Under the pieces are notes generated by a model, which was given only the letters and a program-made list of their open reading frames with translations, did not search any database and was not told the DNA's origin. The position numbers and the translations under genes are program-made. Shown here in pieces: positions 395 through 22,359 of a stretch of 43,553 bases of DNA; positions within the stretch are counted from its first letter, which is position 1; every line of letters begins with the position of its first letter. Origin of the DNA: Escherichia phage EP-B-K_E2; the sequence record OR992644.1; one strand, 5' to 3'.

Positions 395-596
395 ACTCTT
401 CTGATAACTTCTCAAGTACAAACGCCAGTTGCGCATTAGCGGCGTCTCTTTGCTGGCGTAGTCGTAGAACCTCCTCCTCGAGTTCCTTGATACGTTTTAT
501 TTCTCGCTTTAACTGCATAGCAAGAAGTTGCTCGCGGGCGTTAAGAGCGTCTTTTATCAATTCGTTGCAAGCGTCAATATCGAACTCATTACTCAT
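393..596 (-). CDS. hypothetical coiled-coil protein
   Basis: 67-aa ORF, heptad-like charged sequence, last gene of minus-strand operon. Confidence 0.5.
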   Translation of the reverse strand: MSNEFDIDACNELIKDALNAREQLLAMQLKREIKRIKELEEEVLRLRQQRDAANAQLAFVLEKLSEE

Positions 597-2017
597 TTCT
601 TACCTCGTCTCTTCATGTAGTTAAGCAACTCTTCCTGTACAGATTTCTTCTCGTCTGTACGCGCAGCAACAACCTCATCCAGCGTGTCTTTAGCTACGAT
701 ATGGTAGAGGAACACCGGGCGCTCGTGGCCCGCCTGTTTCTGGCGTACCGGGCCGATGCGCTCAACGACCTGCAAATAGTGCTCAAGGTTCCAGCCCTGC
801 GAAATAAACGCCAGATGGTGACCGCCGTCCTGTAAATTCAAACCATGCCCGGCTGACGCAGGATGTACGCATAGGATTTCGATTTCGCCACGGTTCCACG
901 CTTCCATCTGCTTATTACCCTTAGCGCCTTTTGCAAACGCCTGTGCCTGCGGGAAACGTTTCAGGATGCGTTCCAGTTCGTGCTTGAACTGATAAGCCAC
1001 AAGCAGCGGTGCACCCTGTAACTCCTCAACAATCGACCCCAGCGCATCCAGTTTCGTGTCGTGCACTTTCTCCCAGTCTTTGGTTGCTTCGCCGTCTGGC
1101 CCCGACACATACACGGCGCCGGATGCAATCTGGAGGCACTTCGACGTCTTCGCCGCCGCGTTAGCGGCTTCAACTTCTCCGCTCTCCAGTTCCGCGAATA
1201 ACTTCTCCTCCATATCGATGTACGCCTGACGCGCTTTCTTAGGCAGGTCGATTTCAACCGGTACAATAATCGGCGCTTCACAACCAAACCACTCGGCAGC
1301 GTCAATCGTGAGACTAATGTCTTTCATCTTCTGATGAATCTCAGTATCCGCACCCGGGCGGGCGTGATATTCACGCGCCATAGCCGACTTACCTTTCTGC
1401 ACTGAGTTAAACCAGCGGTCGGTGAATGCCGTGTACGATGAACCGAGGCGCTCTCCTGCGTCGATAAACCAGTTCTGGCCCCACAAGTCCTTGAGGCCGT
1501 TAGGTGATGGTGTACCAGTCAGGTTGATGAAACGCTTAACTTTACCGAATGCCACTTTGCTGAGCGCCTTCGCTCGCTTGCTCCCACCCGAACAGCTGCG
1601 GAAAGATTTTAGCTTCGTGCTTTCATCGGCAACGATAACCGTGAAAGGCCAGTCGTCTTTGCCGTAGTAGTCAATCAGCCATTCGATAACTTCGTAGTTA
1701 GTGCACACCACGTTAGCATCTGACTCCAGCGCCGCGATGCGGCGCTTCTCCGAACCAGTTGCATCTACGACACGCAGACAAGGGAATTGCCATTTCTCTT
1801 GTTCAGCGGGCCACGTACCGGACGCAACACGTAACGGGGCAAGGATTAACACGCGGTCCTCTTCCGTAAGCTGCCCGTTGCGGAACAGGCGGTTGAGCAC
1901 CCACATAGTGGAGGAGGTTTTACCTCCCCCCATTCCGCACCAGATATTACAGCGCGGGTGTTGCAGCATGAACGAAGTCATGAGCTTCTGGTACTCGCGC
2001 CTTTGAAACTTACTCAT
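593..2017 (-). CDS. SNF2/DEAD-like superfamily 2 DNA helicase
   Basis: Walker A GMGGGKTS, DExx-like VADES, helicase C-terminal region; 474 aa. Confidence 0.75.
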   Translation of the reverse strand: MSKFQRREYQKLMTSFMLQHPRCNIWCGMGGGKTSSTMWVLNRLFRNGQLTEEDRVLILAPLRVASGTWPAEQEKWQFPCLRVVDATGSEKRRIAALESDANVVCTNYEVIEWLIDYYGKDDWPFTVIVADESTKLKSFRSCSGGSKRAKALSKVAFGKVKRFINLTGTPSPNGLKDLWGQNWFIDAGERLGSSYTAFTDRWFNSVQKGKSAMAREYHARPGADTEIHQKMKDISLTIDAAEWFGCEAPIIVPVEIDLPKKARQAYIDMEEKLFAELESGEVEAANAAAKTSKCLQIASGAVYVSGPDGEATKDWEKVHDTKLDALGSIVEELQGAPLLVAYQFKHELERILKRFPQAQAFAKGAKGNKQMEAWNRGEIEILCVHPASAGHGLNLQDGGHHLAFISQGWNLEHYLQVVERIGPVRQKQAGHERPVFLYHIVAKDTLDEVVAARTDEKKSVQEELLNYMKRRGKK

Positions 2018-2939
2018 TTACCGCCCCCATGAATGCCTTTATAAATTCAGCGGCTACTTGCGGGACGATGGCATTGCCATAACCGCGCAATCGTCCCACT
2101 CTGGCGGGTACCCCATTAGCCAGCGGGAATGTGCCGGGTTCAACTGGCCTGAATTTTCCATCCCGGCATCCGAGCCAGTCAGTATCTGACCAGAAGCCGT
2201 GATGCGGATTGGCCGCGATATTTTCAGTCCCTGCTCCGTTGAGTAGTCCAGCCTGCTGAATGTCCTGTCCTTCCCGTCCTTGCGAATAACTGTCTCTCCG
2301 CTCCCTCTGTAATCGTTCGCGGTCGGCGTCACCCATGCCGCCATCGCAGCGGCCCATCCCAGTTTGTTCGGTTTCGTCCTGCCGTCTGTGCTGCGCATGT
2401 TCACGTCGTTTGTTATCAGTGATACCGCCGGTGTGGGCCAGTCTGTGCGCGCCGAAGAACAGCCTGTCGCGTTTGTGCGGTGCGCCGACGCTACAAGCTG
2501 GGAGTACGGCAAACCCGACGGCGTAGTCTTCTCCTTCCAGGTGAGTTTGTAAATCGCACATCCACGATTTTGCAATTGCTGGCGCAACTTGTTCCCCAAA
2601 GATGACTGGAGGACGGCACTCGCTGATGAGGTCAAGGAAGACTGGAGCGAGGTGTCTCGGGTCGAACTGTCCGAGTTGTTTTCCTGCCGCGCTAAACGGT
2701 TGGCAAGGCGGGCTTCCCGTCCAGAGAGGCGTATCTTCCGAAACTCCCGCAAGTCTGAGCGCGAGAGACCAGCCGCCGATACCAGCGAAAAAATGACACT
2801 GGGTGAACCCGTCAAGGTCTTCTGGTCTAACTTCAGTAATGCTTCTTTCATCTACAACTCCAAAAGGTATGTGGCCCTGTTTTATCAACTCGCGCAGCCA
2901 CGCGGTTGCGCCTTTATCCCACTCGTTGTAATAGTTCAT
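2010..2939 (-). CDS. DNA (cytosine-5)-methyltransferase
   Basis: Motif I FFAGIGG, motif IV GSPPCQPFSAAGK (PCQ), motif VIII RDRLFFG, C-terminal GNAIVP. Confidence 0.75.
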   Translation of the reverse strand: MNYYNEWDKGATAWLRELIKQGHIPFGVVDERSITEVRPEDLDGFTQCHFFAGIGGWSLALRLAGVSEDTPLWTGSPPCQPFSAAGKQLGQFDPRHLAPVFLDLISECRPPVIFGEQVAPAIAKSWMCDLQTHLEGEDYAVGFAVLPACSVGAPHKRDRLFFGAHRLAHTGGITDNKRREHAQHRRQDETEQTGMGRCDGGMGDADRERLQRERRDSYSQGREGQDIQQAGLLNGAGTENIAANPHHGFWSDTDWLGCRDGKFRPVEPGTFPLANGVPARVGRLRGYGNAIVPQVAAEFIKAFMGAVNE

Positions 2940-3157: not shown

Positions 3158-3445
3158 CTAACTATAATAGTTCGCTATTAGGTCGTCAACCTGTTTAAAC
3201 GAACCAACGACAAAAACATTTGCACCGCGTTTACGCATCCGCTCATGCTCACGTAACTGGTGCGGGTCAGGCTTCGTGTTTTCGTCTTTCTTAACCTCGA
3301 CGAACCAGACGATGCCGCCGGGGAGAATTACCAGCAGGTCAGGGGCGCCGGAGCGCCCCTCGTACGAAAGTTTACGAACGAGGCCGCCAATGGCCTCGAA
3401 TTGCTCTTTTGCGTATTTCTGTACGCGGCCCTCTTTAGTCGCCAT
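3158..3445 (-). CDS. VRR-NUC domain nuclease (PD-(D/E)XK)
   Basis: GAPDLLVILPGG...VEVK motif typical of VRR-NUC. Confidence 0.7.
   Translation of the reverse strand: MATKEGRVQKYAKEQFEAIGGLVRKLSYEGRSGAPDLLVILPGGIVWFVEVKKDENTKPDPHQLREHERMRKRGANVFVVGSFKQVDDLIANYYS
3161..3189 (-). promoter_or_regulatory. sigma70-like promoter TTGACG-N17-TATAGT with AATAG-N4-CTATT dyad
   Basis: Read on minus strand; same architecture as 7070-7098 and 9383-9411. Confidence 0.6.
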
Positions 3446-3941
3446 GGTTGCAAAACTCTCCGTGCAGTTTTGCCCTAAATTCTCTCAGCGATTCGTCTGC
3501 TTCATTTAGGTTCTGGAAATACCCAATCTGGTGGCGTGTACCTTTAAAACCAACGCGGGCACACCAAGCATTATGGTGCTTACTCCAGTTAACCCCTTTC
3601 ACCCCGCTGGTGTTTGTAACTGGGGTCTTGCGGTTATGGTTCTGTTGAAATTCATCCGCAAGCCGTAGGTTACAAATCCGATTATCGTCCCGTATGCCGT
3701 TAATATGGTCTATTTGCTTAGTTGGCATCTCTCCGTACACCCACCACCACGCCAGCCTGTGTGCGCGGTAATACACCCTATTCCATCCTAACAATATGTA
3801 CCCTTTACGGTCCTTGTATGTAACAACATCTCCGGGTTTCGCGGTCTGGCATCTGTGCTTGACCCATTTAAATATCCCGGTATCTGGGTCGTATGACAGA
3901 AAATCTTTTATATCGTCACTTGGTGCTTTCATAATACACAC
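3435..3941 (-). CDS. HNH homing-type endonuclease with AP2-like DNA-binding domain
   Basis: HRLAWWWVYGEMPTKQIDHINGIRDDNRICNLRL HNH motif; C-terminal GVKGVNW...YFQNLNEA AP2-like. Confidence 0.65.
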   Translation of the reverse strand: MCIMKAPSDDIKDFLSYDPDTGIFKWVKHRCQTAKPGDVVTYKDRKGYILLGWNRVYYRAHRLAWWWVYGEMPTKQIDHINGIRDDNRICNLRLADEFQQNHNRKTPVTNTSGVKGVNWSKHHNAWCARVGFKGTRHQIGYFQNLNEADESLREFRAKLHGEFCNHGD

Positions 3942-4135
3942 CCCTCACGTTTCGTATGCTCAATACCGCAGCGCGGACAGATTCGGCAGTCTTCCTCATA
4001 AAACCAGTAAATTTTCATTCCAGCACCCACAGATAAATTGCGATGAACATACCCAATACGGCTACCATCATGCCGTATTACCCCTCGTGACAGTAGACAC
4101 CGGCGGCGAATCCCGCCAGTACCGCAATAATCAGT

Positions 4136-6316
4136 TTACTTAGCATAGCGCTTCATCTCCGCACCTTCCGCTACAAGAGGGAACCCCTCTGCCCACTCTG
4201 GTAATTCGCACATCAACCGTTCAAGCTCTGCGACATTGTATTCCGGTAAATCTGGCGTCTCGCAGATAATCTCATCGTGAACATGAAGCACAATTGGGTA
4301 GCCGTTTGCTTCGACGTTAAGCAGGGCATTAGCCAGCAAATCACGGCACAGCGCCTGAGTGCAGTTTTCCACCAGTTTACCGGAGTAGGTATACTGGAAG
4401 CCCCACTGCCTGGTTAACTGGTTTTCGCCCTGGTACTTGATGCGCACGTTAGTAGACACCTTCCCGTCTTCGTCTGTCTCTTTTGATACACTTAAACCAA
4501 CGCCCGGGTAAGACATAACGCGGCCCGACGGCAACGTCATGCGCAACCACCAGCCCGCGACTTTGTTGCCGTTGGTGTCTGTTTCTACGTTACGCGAAAA
4601 CTTAACGCCCCGCGGCCCTGCGGTGAACTCTTTACCTGGGTTGCGGATAGCCGCCATAGCTGCATCTTCAATATCTCGCCAGAAAGCTACTGTTTCCGGG
4701 TGAGACTCGCGCCACATGCGCTTGATAGCGTCACAGGTACGCCACACTTTCTTATCAAGAATATATGATGGTCGGTCATCCTTTTCACCTGGACGTGGTG
4801 GTCGCTTGGCTTCCTGAATACGCGCCCACTCATATCCACGTGCGGTAGCAGCCCAGATGTGGTCGGGGAAAGTCCCATCCATTGTTTTTGCCATATCAAC
4901 CAGGTCAAGGCCAAGGTTCTTGGCGAACTGTACGAATGCGCCGACGCCGCCCGCATAGCCAAGCCCAAGTTCGCAGGCCTTACCAATCTGGCGCAAATCT
5001 TTACGTTCTTTCTTAATGTAATCTGGGTCCATGCCGAACATCTTACCTGCGGTTACGCAGTAAATATCCAGTCCGGCGCGGAACGTATCTAGCGCGGTTT
5101 CTTCGCCTGCCAGCCACGCTAAACCACGGCCTTCGACGTTTGAGTAATCGGCGACGACAAACTTATGCCCCACTTCCGGTATGATGCAGCTACGTACCGT
5201 CGATGCCGTTAGCTTGGCTACATCAAAACGGCGGTGTGCCCGGCCTTTAAGTAACGCTGAAATGCCTTTATCCAATTCATCATCGTGATAGTACCCGCGC
5301 GCCAGGTTCTGCGGCTGGAAGCCTTTACCTGCAAACCGTAACGTACGCTTGGCCCCACCGTACTGGATGCAACCACGGCGTCGGTCGTCAGACGAGCGGC
5401 CCAACAGCAGCGGGTTATATTTCGTTGACGCGGTGGACGCGGCCCCGAGGCGCATTTCGATAATTGTGCGTGCGTCGTCCGGTAAATCATCGTCCGCCAG
5501 CAGGTCGTTAAGCGTCGACTTCTGTGCGTTGTGTATGCGGTGTGCAGGGGAGAGTTCACGAAGAATCGGCAGAAAGTCCTTACCAGTAAGCGAGCCGCCG
5601 TATTTGCGTTGGGCTTCCTCCTGTAACTGCGCTTTGTGTTTCTCCACGGCTTCAATAGCGGCTTCCGCCAGTGCAACGTCAACCTTAAACCCGCGGTCGT
5701 TGATTAACTGGTCCAGTTCCAGTACACGGTCTTCGAACTCAGAGTTACCCCAACGCGGCAGCTTATGGAAGACTTCACGCATCGCAGTGATGTCGCTCAC
5801 GGCGTACTTGATGAACAGCGCCCACTCGTCCGGGTGTGTTTCTGCGGTGTAGCGGCGGATTTTGTAATTCTTCGGTGTCGGTTTAGAGAAACGCTGAATC
5901 AGCGCCTTGCCGCGTTTATCTTTTGCATTGTCAGCAGACACGCCGAGCACTTCACACAGCGCATCAAGTGAACCCGGCAGCGCGTGACGAAACGCCCAAA
6001 TCATCGTATCAATGGTGTTGCTTACGGGAATATCAAAGCCCCAGCAGTGTTTCATGATGGGCCTATCGAAAAGTCCACCGTTGTGCCACACCATCTTAAT
6101 GCGGCTGTTTGGCTTCACCAGACGGCGCAGAGCACGGTGCAAATCTCCTGGCATGTCGCTGCCGTCAGTGCAATCCCATACACGTACTGGCTCGTCGTCA
6201 AAAGAGTATGTACAGATAAGCACTTCGGTTGACGGATGCTCGGCGTAAGCGTAAGAACCGACTTTCTTCAAATCGGCTTCGGAGAATGTTTCAAAGTCTA
6301 AGAACAGGTAACTCAT
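4136..6316 (-). CDS. family A DNA polymerase with 3'-5' exonuclease domain
   Basis: Exo motif LFLDFETFS; pol motif A DYSNVEGR, motif B RQIGKACELGLGYAGG, motif C VLHVHDEI. Confidence 0.85.
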   Translation of the reverse strand: MSYLFLDFETFSEADLKKVGSYAYAEHPSTEVLICTYSFDDEPVRVWDCTDGSDMPGDLHRALRRLVKPNSRIKMVWHNGGLFDRPIMKHCWGFDIPVSNTIDTMIWAFRHALPGSLDALCEVLGVSADNAKDKRGKALIQRFSKPTPKNYKIRRYTAETHPDEWALFIKYAVSDITAMREVFHKLPRWGNSEFEDRVLELDQLINDRGFKVDVALAEAAIEAVEKHKAQLQEEAQRKYGGSLTGKDFLPILRELSPAHRIHNAQKSTLNDLLADDDLPDDARTIIEMRLGAASTASTKYNPLLLGRSSDDRRRGCIQYGGAKRTLRFAGKGFQPQNLARGYYHDDELDKGISALLKGRAHRRFDVAKLTASTVRSCIIPEVGHKFVVADYSNVEGRGLAWLAGEETALDTFRAGLDIYCVTAGKMFGMDPDYIKKERKDLRQIGKACELGLGYAGGVGAFVQFAKNLGLDLVDMAKTMDGTFPDHIWAATARGYEWARIQEAKRPPRPGEKDDRPSYILDKKVWRTCDAIKRMWRESHPETVAFWRDIEDAAMAAIRNPGKEFTAGPRGVKFSRNVETDTNGNKVAGWWLRMTLPSGRVMSYPGVGLSVSKETDEDGKVSTNVRIKYQGENQLTRQWGFQYTYSGKLVENCTQALCRDLLANALLNVEANGYPIVLHVHDEIICETPDLPEYNVAELERLMCELPEWAEGFPLVAEGAEMKRYAK

Positions 6317-15378: not shown

Positions 15379-15459
15379 TTATCCAGTTAAACGACATTAT
15401 GAAAGCAGACATCATTCAGCTTGAAGATTACGGTATGCAACTCGCGGAGATTGAGGAAC

Positions 15460-15753
15460 ATGAGTCTCGCAACTGACATCCTGAAACGAAGCGGCCTTGC
15501 GCCGCTGTCGCCGAGAGTTAAAACACAGATATACAAGCGTCGGGGTAACGCGCTGTACCCAGAGATTCAGGCCAGGCGCAAAGCTATCCGCGCCTGTGGA
15601 TTCCAGAACGGGAAGGCCGTGAATCTCGGTGAGTTCAAGACAAAGGAACGTGCCGCTATTGCTAATCGGTTATTTAATTACTGGAAATCGCTGGGATACG
15701 ATGATATTCCGACGAAACCACAGAGACGACAATACATCTGGAGACATAAATAA
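15460..15753 (+). CDS. hypothetical basic protein
   Basis: ORF-track ORF 15421-15753 trimmed to first ATG. Confidence 0.45.
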   Translation: MSLATDILKRSGLAPLSPRVKTQIYKRRGNALYPEIQARRKAIRACGFQNGKAVNLGEFKTKERAAIANRLFNYWKSLGYDDIPTKPQRRQYIWRHK

Positions 15754-19665: not shown

Positions 19666-19759
19666 GTACATCCAGCCCAATCCCCTTATATAATCCCTTT
19701 AGACGCGTAGGGCGCGTCTGGTGCGCTCTGATGGTCAGACGCATATGCAAGGGGATTCT

Positions 19760-20269
19760 ATGAAGCTGAAACTCAAGCAGCCATCGCCAGAGGTGGTGCA
19801 AGCTGCGCATGAAGAAGCTGTTAGCGCAAACCGTCGCCGTAAACGACCGCGCGGTAAACAGAGCCTTTATCAATCATCCCGTAATTCCGCTGCGCTGTGG
19901 GACCCGGACTATTGCGACGAATTGATTCGTTTCTTCGACCGCACGTCGTGGGAGCTTGTGCCTACGTCCAAAGGTGACGAACGCCCGCTGATTCAGGATA
20001 AACCGCCATCACTGGCACGCTTCGCCTTACACATCGGCGTCACTATCCCGATTATTAAGCTGTGGCTGCGCGAGATTCCCGCATTTGCAGAAGCCTGGGA
20101 GACGGCGCAGGCGCTGGAAGAGGCGTATTTCACTGAGACTGGCGCCGCGGGCATCTCCGCGACGTTCGCTGCCGCTAAGCTGGGGCTGAATAAGAAAGAT
20201 GAGCCTGAGAACGATAGCAGCACATCGCAGAACATCACAGTAGTGATAAAGAAAGATACTGGAGAGTAG
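19760..20269 (+). CDS. terminase small subunit
   Basis: Position immediately upstream of large terminase, basic N-terminus, size about 170 aa; SD aagggga. Confidence 0.55.
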   Translation: MKLKLKQPSPEVVQAAHEEAVSANRRRKRPRGKQSLYQSSRNSAALWDPDYCDELIRFFDRTSWELVPTSKGDERPLIQDKPPSLARFALHIGVTIPIIKLWLREIPAFAEAWETAQALEEAYFTETGAAGISATFAAAKLGLNKKDEPENDSSTSQNITVVIKKDTGE

Positions 20270-20327
20270 TAGACGGGCTAGATAAACGATGCTAGTATCA
20301 ACCCATCCATTGAAGTGGGTTGATACT

Positions 20328-21125
20328 ATGAATTACGAAAAGATATACGAAAGCTTTATATCTCGTTGCAGGTCGCTGCCACACCGGGGCTACGCCGAAA
20401 GACACCACATACTGCCGCGGTCCTTAGGCGGGGATGACTCCCCCGAGAATCTTATTGATTTATCCGCAAGAGAACATTTCTTCGCGCATCTCCTTCTGGC
20501 AAAAATCCACGGCGGCAACATGTGGGCCGCTCTGGCATACATGTCAAGAGGCGGCACTAAGTCAAGCAAACTACATAAATGCACATCCCGTCAGTATGAG
20601 TTTATAAAGCGTAAAGACGCTGAATGGCGTAGCTTGGCGTACCGTGGGGATAAAAACCCGTTCTACGGGAAAACGCATTCACCACAAGCCCTGGCGAAAA
20701 TGCGCAAACCTAGAGTCAATAAAGAGAGACTTTTTGGGCGGGCGGTGCCGGGTGTCGGGGCTATCATATCGTTTGTGCAGACATATAGACCCCGTGCGGT
20801 AGAAATAGATACTACGGTTAGAGACCGAATTGATAGTTGGTTCGCGGTGGACGAAGAACTGCGGCAGCTTAATGTATTCCTCGCCCGTAGCCAAGGGCAG
20901 AAAGCGCTCAATCGAGACCACCACGGCGAAAAGAACCCAAACTACGGCAATGGGAAAGCCATATCCGGCGAAAAGAACCCGATGTTCGGTAAGAAACACA
21001 GCGAAAGCACCAGGGCTAAAATTGCGGAGAAAATGAAACGCACTATGGTGTGCCCGCACTGCGGCAAAGAATCTAACATAGCAAACGCACATAGGTGGCA
21101 CTTTGACAACTGCAAACACAAATGA
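20328..21125 (+). CDS. HNH homing-type endonuclease with NUMOD3-like repeats
   Basis: HHILPRSLGGDDSPENLIDLSAREH HNH motif; repeated KNPxYGK motifs. Confidence 0.7.
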   Translation: MNYEKIYESFISRCRSLPHRGYAERHHILPRSLGGDDSPENLIDLSAREHFFAHLLLAKIHGGNMWAALAYMSRGGTKSSKLHKCTSRQYEFIKRKDAEWRSLAYRGDKNPFYGKTHSPQALAKMRKPRVNKERLFGRAVPGVGAIISFVQTYRPRAVEIDTTVRDRIDSWFAVDEELRQLNVFLARSQGQKALNRDHHGEKNPNYGNGKAISGEKNPMFGKKHSESTRAKIAEKMKRTMVCPHCGKESNIANAHRWHFDNCKHK

Positions 21126-22359
21126 GAAAGAGATGTTGCTTCTCCCGCACCAATACGAACTATTGGCTGATACCACGACAAAGATAATCGGGCTGTGTTC
21201 CGGATTCGGGGGCGGTAAAACGTACAGCGCCGCGCGTAAAGCGGTGCATCTGGCTCTTCTTAACCCAGGTGTAGACGGAATAATAACAGAGCCGACGTTT
21301 CCTCTGTTAGTGCAGGTTATGTTTCCAGAACTTATGGCGGCGCTGGACTTCTTCGGCGTCAAATACAAGTTCAACAAGGTTGAGTCTATTTTTTATTGCG
21401 ACATAAACGGGCAAACAACCCGTATTATTTGCGGAAGTATGGAGAACTATCAGCGACTTATCGGGATAAACGCCGCGTGGTGCGTGTGCGACGAGTTTGA
21501 TACCGCTAAGCAAGAAACCGCTTATGCCGCGTACATGAAGCTGCTAGGCCGCCTTCGTAGGGGTAATGTGCGCCAGTTGGTGATAGTGTCTACCCCTGAG
21601 GGTTTCAGGGCGATGTACCAGATATTCGTAACCGAAGCCGATGCCAGCAAACGGCTAATACGTGCGAAGACAACCGATAACTACCACTTACCAGCGGACT
21701 ACGTAGAGTCAATGCGCAGCCAGTACCCTGAGCAACTCATAAACGCCTATCTGAATGGCGAGTTCGTAAACCTTACATCTGGAGTTGTATATTATGGCTA
21801 TCAACGAGGTAAATGCGAATCCAACGAAACTATTAAACCGGGTGAACCTCTATACATTGGGCAGGATTTTAACGTCGGCAAAATGGCGTCGTGCGTTTAT
21901 GTAAAACGCGGTGCTGATTTTCATGCGGTAGCCGAGTTGGTCGACCTTTTTGATACCCCTGATGTAGTTCGCGTTATCAAGGAGCGGTGGGCCGGGCATC
22001 ACATAATTATGTACCCAGACGCCAGTGGTCGTAATCGTAAAAGCAACTCCGCTTCCACATCTGACATAGCTATCCTGGAGCAAGCAGGATTTGAGATTAG
22101 AGCTAAATCAAAAAATCCACCTGTGAAAGACCGTGTCGCCGCGAGTAACGCCGCGTTTGAAAAAGGTAGAGTCTTTATTAACTCGAAGGCTTGCCCTGCA
22201 ACGGCGCGAGGATTAGAGCAGCAAGCCTATGATAAAAACGGTGAGCCAGAGAAAAACGGCGTAATCGACCATATGGTTGACGCAGCTACATACTTGATCG
22301 CTTACGAGATGCCAGTAGCTAAACCTGTCATTAATATACCGGTTACTTTCGCGCTATAA
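21103..22359 (+). CDS. terminase large subunit
   Basis: Walker A-like GFGGGKTYSA, 418 aa, followed by portal. Confidence 0.8.
   Translation: MTTANTNEKEMLLLPHQYELLADTTTKIIGLCSGFGGGKTYSAARKAVHLALLNPGVDGIITEPTFPLLVQVMFPELMAALDFFGVKYKFNKVESIFYCDINGQTTRIICGSMENYQRLIGINAAWCVCDEFDTAKQETAYAAYMKLLGRLRRGNVRQLVIVSTPEGFRAMYQIFVTEADASKRLIRAKTTDNYHLPADYVESMRSQYPEQLINAYLNGEFVNLTSGVVYYGYQRGKCESNETIKPGEPLYIGQDFNVGKMASCVYVKRGADFHAVAELVDLFDTPDVVRVIKERWAGHHIIMYPDASGRNRKSNSASTSDIAILEQAGFEIRAKSKNPPVKDRVAASNAAFEKGRVFINSKACPATARGLEQQAYDKNGEPEKNGVIDHMVDAATYLIAYEMPVAKPVINIPVTFAL

What the first reader, a model, noticed from the sequence alone, without database searches (positions are those of the whole stretch)
3435..3941. 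Second HNH endonuclease (HNH plus AP2-like domain) inside the replication module
An HNH motif with an AP2-like C-terminal DNA-binding domain is inserted between the VRR-NUC gene and the DNA polymerase, overlapping the VRR-NUC gene's start. Two unrelated HNH genes in one 43-kb genome suggest ongoing homing-endonuclease traffic.
Basis: partly seen in the sequence, partly recalled or inferred. Interest (0 to 1): 0.35.

Follow-up and report, generated by a model that had tools for sequence, protein, structure and literature searches.

The report
Free-standing HNH-AP2 homing endonuclease gene

Summary
ORF 3435..3941 (-) most likely starts at ATG 3932 and encodes 165 aa. The protein has an I-HmuI-like HNH (HNN-type) nuclease domain followed by an AP2/ERF-fold DNA-binding domain, and all catalytic residues are intact. 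Its stop overlaps the VRR-NUC start by 11 nt. Two tiny ORFs separate it from the DNA polymerase gene.

The window is a Kagunavirus (Guernseyvirinae), 100% identical to Escherichia phage EP-M-A. The "homing traffic" interpretation is supported:
- The ortholog occurs in 54 GenBank phage records, against 438 that carry the neighbouring VRR-NUC, and in 2 of 49 IMG/VR relatives.
- The closest complete genome, NTEC3, has a 50-aa membrane ORF in exactly this slot.
- Synonymous divergence of the HNH gene between E. coli and Salmonella phages (0.13-0.19) is 3-8 times lower than in the flanking core genes.
- dN/dS is 0.08-0.18.
- A second allele, a nonsense-truncated copy and an internally deleted remnant (phage Jersey) occupy the same slot.
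- More distant phages carry 56-70% identical orthologs at the same position.

A second, unrelated HNH+NUMOD3 gene lies at 20289..21125. Cleavage and homing themselves are inferred, not shown. This kind of gene is known and its orthologs are already annotated, so interest is low.

The parts
3435..3932 (-). HNH(HNN)-AP2 free-standing homing endonuclease gene, 165 aa from ATG 3932. The longest ORF extends to GTG 3941.
   Evidence: orthologs are annotated with this start
3762..3932 (-). N-terminal beta-hairpin region (aa 1-57), equivalent to the I-HmuI N-terminal DNA-contacting sheet. The first ~75 nt are ~93% identical between the two alleles found in this slot.
   Evidence: AF2 strands 12-15, 20-23, 46-50, 53-56; 1U3E alignment; allele comparison
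3633..3761 (-). HNH_3 / His-Me finger catalytic core (aa 58-100). D75 is at 3708-3710, H76 at 3705-3707, N88 at 3669-3671, N100 at 3633-3635.
   Evidence: Pfam HNH_3 on aa 58-95 of the 168-aa ORF; invariant columns; alignment to I-HmuI 'DHkdGnkdnNlstNLR'
3453..3614 (-). AP2/ERF-fold DNA-binding domain (aa 107-160): three beta strands plus one helix.
3441..3928 (-). Cassette body, the stretch with no counterpart in phage NTEC3. NTEC3 has 147 bp encoding a 50-aa membrane ORF (gp51) here. The junctions lie at the ATTATGA start overlap and at VRR-NUC codon 2.
3435..3445 (-). 11-nt overlap between the HNH stop and the VRR-NUC start. The cassette supplies the VRR-NUC ATG and an extra Ala codon (MATKEG against MTKEG, MSTPEG or MTPEG in genomes without it).
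3158..3445 (-). VRR-NUC nuclease gene (95 aa), a conserved downstream neighbour.
3929..4018 (-). 29-aa Cys-rich ORF 'B' (MKIYWFYEEDCRICPRCGIEHTKREGCVL). Its TGA overlaps the HNH ATG (ATGA), and it is conserved in relatives.
4015..4146 (-). 43-codon membrane ORF 'A' overlapping the end of the polymerase gene. It is interrupted by an in-frame TAA in this window.
4136..6316 (-). Family A DNA polymerase gene, the upstream neighbour.
20289..21125 (+). The other, unrelated HNH gene (HNH + NUMOD3, 278 aa), between the terminase small and large subunit genes.

Best explanation
The gene is a free-standing homing endonuclease gene of the HNN-AP2 type, embedded in the replication operon of a Kagunavirus.

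Proposed mechanism:
1. The protein is an extended monomer. An I-HmuI-like N-terminal beta-sheet and a His-Me finger (D75-H76 as general base and metal ligand, N88 structural, N100 metal ligand) cut or nick DNA. The C-terminal AP2 domain provides sequence recognition.
2. It is transcribed with its neighbours and translated by coupling to the preceding 29-aa ORF (ATGA overlap). It in turn carries the start codon of the downstream VRR-NUC gene.
3. In a mixed infection it would cut the cognate site of a related phage that lacks it, probably at or near the ORF-B/VRR-NUC junction.
4. Recombinational repair from the HNH-carrying genome would then copy the cassette in (intron-less homing).
5. Once fixed, the gene decays by nonsense mutation and internal deletion, and is lost or replaced.

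Shown here: domain architecture, intact catalytic residues, purifying selection, patchy distribution, same-site occupancy over a wide range of phages, more recent ancestry than the flanking genes, and degenerate copies.

Inferred: nuclease activity, the target site, whether it nicks or makes a double-strand cut, and the homing event itself.
For: Architecture:
- HNH_3 E=2e-12 and PHROG 99 E=7e-65.
- The family profile hits I-HmuI 1U3E at 3.7e-7 and AP2 structures at 8.5e-6 and 1e-3.
- AF2 model pLDDT 92.7. Foldseek matches 1u3e, 7et5 and 1gcc at probability 1.0.
- Invariant D75, H76, N84, N88, R90, N100.

Patchy distribution:
- 54 records have the ortholog at >=90% aa and none lies between 60 and 90%, against 438 records with VRR-NUC at >=80%.
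- 2 of 49 IMG/VR relatives carry it.
- NTEC3 has another ORF in the slot, with exact junctions.

Recent spread:
- dS of HNH is 0.19 (95% CI 0.11-0.28) against 0.75 (0.62-0.93) for VRR+orf63+SNF2 and 1.6 for pol, comparing the window with Salmonella phage SETP3. The pattern is similar for SETP7, EM1 and KMB36.
- HNH is the most similar segment of the locus.
- HNH-positive genomes are scattered among HNH-negative ones in flank similarity.

Functional constraint: dN/dS is 0.08-0.18.

Decay cycle:
- A second allele (50% aa) sits in the same slot in ZCEC5, with a premature TAG. Its intact form is P0012.
- Phage Jersey has an internally deleted remnant of that allele.

Site specificity: orthologs at 56-70% aa identity sit in the same slot, overlapping the VRR-NUC start, in phages whose polymerase is only 65-67% identical.

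Literature:
- HNN-AP2 free-standing endonuclease genes that spread and degenerate in phage genomes are described in PMC2248197.
- Homing endonucleases are listed as mobile accessory genes of Jerseyvirus in PMC8425127.
Against: - No cleavage or homing data exist for this protein or any close ortholog that I could find.
- The slot between pol and VRR-NUC also exchanges non-nuclease cassettes (89-1125 bp, several small ORFs). Presence/absence alone could therefore arise from ordinary recombination at conserved gene boundaries.
- No clear co-conversion gradient is visible in the flanks.
- Most of the 51 Salmonella records are near-clonal isolates (the Kenya-K series), so the number of independent lineages carrying the gene is small.
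- No promoter of its own was found.
- Long-term association with VRR-NUC in distant phages is also compatible with a functional partnership.
Confidence: 0.8

Rival explanations
1. Passive cassette. The gene encodes an HNH-AP2 protein, but its patchy distribution is produced by ordinary homologous or microhomology recombination at conserved gene boundaries (the shared TTATGA start overlaps and the conserved VRR-NUC 5' end), like the other small cassettes in this slot. The nuclease does not drive its own spread.
For: - The slot holds at least five alternative occupants and combinations, all joined at ATGA overlaps.
- In EM1 the HNH follows a different upstream cassette.
- There is no visible co-conversion tract.
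- The backbone is generally mosaic.
Against: - The gene is under purifying selection with intact active-site residues, which passive hitch-hiking does not explain.
- Its dS is 3-8 times lower than that of the flanks in four independent comparisons.
- The same lineage is found at the same site in much more distant phages.
- The protein family is the classic phage homing/nicking endonuclease type.
Confidence: 0.1
2. Domesticated accessory nuclease. The HNH works for the phage, for example by nicking DNA for replication or recombination together with the translationally coupled VRR-NUC resolvase, or by excluding related co-infecting phages. It is kept for that benefit.
For: - Stop/start overlap with VRR-NUC, and the same pairing in distant phages.
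- dN/dS is 0.08-0.18.
- It has no promoter of its own and is embedded in the replication operon.
Against: - It is absent from about 88% of relatives that keep VRR-NUC, including the closest complete genome, so it is dispensable.
- Nonsense and deletion derivatives exist in viable phages.
- There is no hit to defence-system models.
- Exclusion of competitors is not really a rival, since it is what homing endonucleases do.
Confidence: 0.08
3. Nuclease-dead AP2 DNA-binding regulator derived from a homing endonuclease.
For: - The AP2 fold is a transcription-factor domain in plants and Apicomplexa.
- One relative is annotated 'pathogenesis-related transcriptional factor and ERF protein' (H59).
Against: All residues invariant in the family's His-Me finger are present, and the HNH_3 score is well above the cut-off.
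Confidence: 0.02

Closest known systems
I-HmuI (Bacillus phage SPO1 intron-encoded HNH nicking homing endonuclease; PDB 1U3E)
   Same: - The N-terminal beta-sheet plus HNN-type His-Me finger match. The family profile hits 1U3E at E=3.7e-7 over query 30-104, and Foldseek gives probability 1.0 with rmsd 3.9 A over 98 columns.
- The D-H...N-L-R motif is conserved.
   Different: - I-HmuI is intron-encoded, and its C-terminal DNA-binding part is helical (helix-turn-helix; my own knowledge of the 2004 structure paper). Here the gene is free-standing and the C-terminal domain is an AP2 fold.
- Sequence identity is only about 22%.
- The HMM alignment places the invariant N100 three residues away from the I-HmuI Asn that I recall as the metal ligand, so that assignment is tentative.
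HNN-AP2 free-standing endonuclease genes of phages (Xanthomonas phages Xp10/OP1/Xop411; T5, T1, Rtp, RB16/RB43), described in PMC2248197
   Same: - Same two-domain architecture and the same conserved boxes (HRLAW, DH, DNR, NLR).
- No Cys dyads.
- Multiple scattered copies in phage genomes, with degenerate and truncated copies.
- T5 and T7 gp3.8 relatives appear among the tblastn hits.
   Different: The Xoo study found varying locations and no conserved flanks. Here one lineage is tied to one site (the pol/VRR-NUC junction) across divergent phages.
Annotated orthologs: SETP3 'putative NHN endonuclease', EM1 gp62, KMB36 'HNH endonuclease motif protein'
   Same: 93-98% aa identity, in the same slot with the same overlap with VRR-NUC.
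   Different: None of substance. The window's own GenBank twin, EP-M-A OR992643, is unannotated.
Intron-less homing of free-standing endonuclease genes in T-even phages (Seg and Mob genes)
   Same: The gene sits between conserved genes, has a patchy distribution among relatives, and has presumed targets in the neighbouring conserved DNA (my own knowledge of that literature; not tested here).
   Different: Seg proteins are GIY-YIG enzymes. The Mob-like HNH+NUMOD3 type corresponds to the window's other gene at 20289..21125, not to this one.

Membership tests
HNH_3 (PF13392) / HNN-type His-Me finger nucleases | Profile match above the curated cut-off | tested here: met
   46.9 bits against 24.8, E=2e-12
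HNH_3 (PF13392) / HNN-type His-Me finger nucleases | Catalytic Asp-His pair and the conserved Asn residues of the beta-beta-alpha-metal motif | tested here: met
   D75, H76, N84, N88 and N100 are invariant in 58 homologs. They align to the I-HmuI DH...N..NLR motif. The model has strands 73-76 and 89-92 followed by helix 94-98.
HNH_3 (PF13392) / HNN-type His-Me finger nucleases | Metal-dependent DNA nicking or cleavage | not testable with these tools
   Needs purified protein.
AP2/ERF DNA-binding domain (PF00847) | Profile match above the curated cut-off | tested here: not met
   14.4 bits against 33.3, E=0.047 for this sequence alone. Many homologs do carry a precomputed PF00847 hit.
AP2/ERF DNA-binding domain (PF00847) | Three-stranded antiparallel sheet packed on one helix; similarity to solved AP2 domains | tested here: met
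   The family profile hits WRI1 at 8.5e-6 and TEM1 at 1e-3. The AF2 model has strands 114-117, 122-129 and 132-139 plus helix 142-160. Foldseek gives 1gcc rmsd 1.6 A and 7et5 rmsd 1.8 A, both at probability 1.0.
Free-standing homing endonuclease gene | Sporadic presence among close relatives at one and the same site | tested here: met
   54 against 438 GenBank records. 2 of 49 IMG/VR loci. The same slot is used in distant phages.
Free-standing homing endonuclease gene | Ancestry of the gene discordant with, and younger than, that of the flanking genes | tested here: met
   dS is 0.13-0.19 against 0.43-0.77 (flanks) and 0.73-1.6 (pol), with non-overlapping bootstrap intervals.
Free-standing homing endonuclease gene | Degenerate copies at the same site (invasion-decay-loss cycle) | tested here: met
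   ZCEC5 has a premature stop and Jersey an internal deletion.
Free-standing homing endonuclease gene | Co-conversion of flanking markers | tested here: inconclusive
   The small-ORF flank is 86% identical against 70% for the pol 3' end in the SETP3 comparison, but VRR-NUC is no more similar than the background.
Free-standing homing endonuclease gene | Cleavage of the endonuclease-less allele and super-Mendelian inheritance in crosses | not testable with these tools
   Requires an experiment.

The most novel reading that the evidence does not exclude
The cassette may be more than selfish. Its 5' end takes over the translational coupling from ORF B, and its 3' end carries the start codon of VRR-NUC. 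Any imprecise loss would therefore silence the downstream resolvase, a kind of 'addiction by translational coupling'.

This would explain three observations:
- Both ends of the gene are retained in the Jersey remnant.
- The ends are nearly identical between the two otherwise 50%-identical alleles.
- The HNH/VRR-NUC pairing persists in distant phages.

A stronger form of the idea is that the HNH and VRR-NUC act as a functional nick-and-resolve pair.
Probability: 0.1. Interest if true: 0.5.

Novelty: already known. Interest (0 to 1): 0.22.

Why it matters
The finding matters little beyond annotation. HNN-AP2 homing endonuclease genes are a textbook class of selfish phage genes, and this one has annotated orthologs going back to phage SETP3.

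The modest added value is a clean natural example. One endonuclease lineage is tied to one site (the polymerase/VRR-NUC junction) across two genera and beyond. The intact, truncated, deleted, replaced and empty states are all represented in public genomes, and there is a quantitative signal of recent spread between E. coli and Salmonella phages. That makes the locus a convenient system for testing intron-less homing in therapeutic-type siphoviruses. It is also a caution that recombination between Kagunavirus and Jerseyvirus phages happens.

Tried and rejected
- A single-sequence search against PDB sequences gave only a chance hit. The family profile was needed.
- I looked for a paralog of the focal gene elsewhere in the window by tblastn with it and four related HNH-AP2 proteins and found none.
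- ORF 15421..15753 looked AP2-like by eye. Pfam found nothing and hhalign gave only 25% probability, so it is left as unproven.
- The promoter and terminator scan gave no signal above shuffled expectation on the coding strand.
- Base composition is only slightly lower in G+C than the polymerase gene (0.48 against 0.54) and is not diagnostic.
- PADLOC defence models gave no hit for the HNH or the VRR-NUC.
- A terminase-associated HNH role was rejected. The gene lies in the replication module, and most relatives package without it.
- A co-conversion gradient was sought and not clearly found.
- The Magnani et al. 2004 paper (PMC520932) could not be opened, so it is cited only through PMC2248197.

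Full report
**What is there**

The minus strand of the window carries a replication operon. In gene order it reads:
- family A DNA polymerase (4136..6316);
- a 43-codon membrane ORF 'A' (4015..4146), interrupted here by an in-frame TAA;
- a 29-aa Cys-rich ORF 'B' (3929..4018);
- the focal ORF (3435..3941);
- VRR-NUC (3158..3445);
- a 63-aa ORF;
- a C5 DNA methyltransferase (2010..2939);
- an SNF2 helicase (593..2017).

The focal ORF's longest form starts at GTG 3941. However, ATG 3932 lies 8 nt after a GAGGGG motif, overlaps the stop of ORF B (ATGA), and is the start annotated in orthologs. The gene is therefore 3435..3932, 165 aa.

**Domain content**

- Pfam gives HNH_3 at E=2e-12, above the cut-off, and AP2 at E=0.047, below the cut-off.
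- PHROG 99 'HNH endonuclease' matches at 7e-65.
- Of 760 homologs at E<=1e-10, many carry both PF13392 and PF00847.
- In an alignment of 58 homologs, D75, H76, N84, N88, R90 and N100 are invariant.
- A profile of that alignment hits the solved HNH homing endonuclease I-HmuI (1U3E, 3.7e-7), then the AP2 domains of WRI1 (8.5e-6) and TEM1 (1e-3).
- The AlphaFold model is confident (pLDDT 92.7, pTM 0.78). It ends in three strands plus a long helix.
- Foldseek matches I-HmuI and the AP2 domains of TEM1 and AtERF1, with rmsd 1.6-1.8 A for the AP2 matches, all at probability 1.0.

**Origin of the window**

The window is 100% identical to Escherichia phage EP-M-A over the part that record holds. It is about 90% identical to Kagunavirus genomes such as NTEC3, which places it in Guernseyvirinae.

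**Is it mobile?**

*Distribution.* tblastn finds the protein at >=90% identity in 54 phage records and nowhere between 60 and 90%. blastn lists them: EP-M-A, EM1 and KMB36 from Escherichia, and SETP3, SETP7, BPS11Q3/T2, SaTp-04, the Kenya-K series and the KE series from Salmonella. The adjacent VRR-NUC is found at >=80% identity in 438 records. Among 49 IMG/VR relatives retrieved through VRR-NUC, only SETP3 and SETP7 carry the gene. Many of the Salmonella records are near-clonal, so independent carriers are few.

*The slot.* NTEC3 aligns with the window up to 3929 and again from 3440. Between those points it has 147 bp encoding a 50-aa membrane protein, in place of the 488-bp HNH body. Across relatives the pol-to-VRR-NUC distance ranges from 89 to 1125 bp. 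The space is filled by alternative small cassettes, each starting at a TTATGA overlap with the preceding stop. EM1 has another cassette between ORF B and the HNH. The HNH cassette brings the VRR-NUC start codon with it: the protein begins MATKEG, against MTKEG, MSTPEG or MTPEG elsewhere.

*Age.* Between the window and Salmonella phage SETP3 the HNH gene is the most similar segment of the locus. It is 92.5-95.7% identical at the nucleotide level, against 68-83% for pol and 85% for VRR-NUC and SNF2. Synonymous divergence (dS), with 95% bootstrap intervals:

| Comparison | HNH | VRR+orf63+SNF2 | pol |
|---|---|---|---|
| Window vs SETP3 | 0.19 (0.11-0.28) | 0.75 (0.62-0.93) | 1.6 |
| Window vs EM1 and KMB36 | 0.13 | 0.43-0.56 | 0.73-0.76 |

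The gene therefore shares a more recent ancestor than its surroundings, which means it has moved between lineages infecting different hosts. HNH-positive genomes are not the window's nearest relatives in the flanking genes.

*Constraint.* dN/dS is 0.08-0.18.

*Decay.* ZCEC5, Shashou and Sciku carry a second allele in the same slot, 50% identical at the protein level. It shares the first ~75 nt and the last ~25 nt with the window's allele. In ZCEC5 it ends at a premature TAG, and the intact form exists as P0012. Phage Jersey keeps only the 5' ~80 nt and 3' ~50 nt of that allele.

*Site fidelity.* Three metagenomic phages have polymerases only 65-67% identical and VRR-NUC 44-55% identical to the window's. 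They carry 56-70% identical orthologs in the same position, again overlapping the VRR-NUC start. One of them has two HNH-AP2 genes in tandem.

**Traffic elsewhere**

The window's other HNH gene (20289..21125; NUMOD3 3.7e-19, HNH 4e-4) sits between the two terminase genes. It is found at >=60% identity in only about ten records. Relatives carry further HNH genes in other positions:
- upstream of pol (EM1, KMB36);
- directly after pol (L012, L014);
- in place of the methyltransferase (EM1);
- in the early region and near the tail genes (NTEC3).

These are seen. Polymerase inteins are annotated in SETP3-like phages.

**Mechanism**

By analogy with I-HmuI and the HNN-AP2 class, the protein should bind DNA as an extended monomer, with the AP2 domain reading the sequence and the His-Me finger cutting one or both strands nearby. 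The natural target is most likely the junction that the cassette interrupts, between ORF B and VRR-NUC. Repair from the carrier genome would copy the cassette in. All of this is inference. No activity data were found.

The main alternative is passive shuffling at conserved gene boundaries. It is plausible for the slot as a whole, but it does not explain the purifying selection on an intact active site or the site fidelity over large distances. A domesticated role is unlikely because about 88% of relatives lack the gene. The persistent pairing with VRR-NUC and the conserved gene ends leave a small chance that expression coupling, or cooperation with the resolvase, contributes to its retention.

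**Comparison with what is known, and novelty**

HNN-AP2 free-standing endonuclease genes that scatter and degenerate in phage genomes were described for the Xanthomonas phages Xp10, OP1 and Xop411, and noted for T5, T1 and others (PMC2248197). Homing endonucleases and inteins are reported as mobile accessory elements of Jerseyvirus genomes (PMC8425127). Orthologs of this very gene are annotated in SETP3, EM1 and KMB36. The finding is correct but ordinary.

**Verdict**

Novelty is 'already known', and interest is 0.22.

Noticed in passing
window 20289..21125 (+): A 278-aa HNH + NUMOD3 endonuclease gene is wedged between the small (19721..20269) and large (21103..22359) terminase genes. Only about 10 GenBank phage records have it at >=60% aa identity, and NTEC3 lacks it. 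More distant relatives are Mob-like genes of T4-type phages.
   Followed up: partly
window 4015..4146 (-): The 43-codon membrane ORF that overlaps the end of the polymerase gene has an in-frame TAA at codon 23 here. In relatives it reads CAA and the ORF is intact. In SETP3 the same ORF has lost its ATG.
   Followed up: partly
window 3929..4018 (-): A conserved 29-aa ORF with a CxxCxxC...C pattern (MKIYWFYEEDCRICPRCGIEHTKREGCVL) is joined by ATGA overlaps to whatever cassette follows. Its function is unknown.
   Followed up: no
window 3440..4138; loci L003-L050: The pol-to-VRR-NUC interval is a hypervariable array (89-1125 bp) of alternative small cassettes: a 50-aa membrane protein, a 64-aa protein, a 25-aa peptide, and other HNH genes. 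All are joined at TTATGA stop/start overlaps, which suggests recombination at these micro-homologies.
   Followed up: partly
L082 3288..3776 (ZCEC5); L046 3867..4000 (Jersey): A second HNH-AP2 allele (50% aa identity) occupies the same slot. It carries a premature TAG in ZCEC5 and is internally deleted in phage Jersey, apparently between short AAGTGG(C/T)C..GCGG repeats. The two alleles share nearly identical first 75 nt and last 25 nt.
   Followed up: yes
L087 3453..4495: A distant relative carries two different HNH-AP2 genes in tandem between the polymerase and the VRR-NUC homolog.
   Followed up: no
window 2010..2939 (-): The C5 cytosine methyltransferase occupies another variable slot. EM1 has an HNH gene there, NTEC3 has a shorter, different methyltransferase, and SETP3 aligns at only about 48%.
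   Followed up: no
window 15421..15753 (+): A 110-aa ORF has a stretch (GKAVNLGEFKTKERAAIANR) that resembles the AP2 strand-helix. hhalign against the HNH-AP2 family gives only 25% probability. It is possibly a decayed endonuclease remnant, but this is unproven.
   Followed up: partly
L083 4196..7291 (KMB36); L030 (SETP3): The polymerase genes of some relatives are about 900 nt longer. They are annotated as intein-containing in SETP3-like phages. This is another selfish element in the same module, and it is absent from the window.
   Followed up: no
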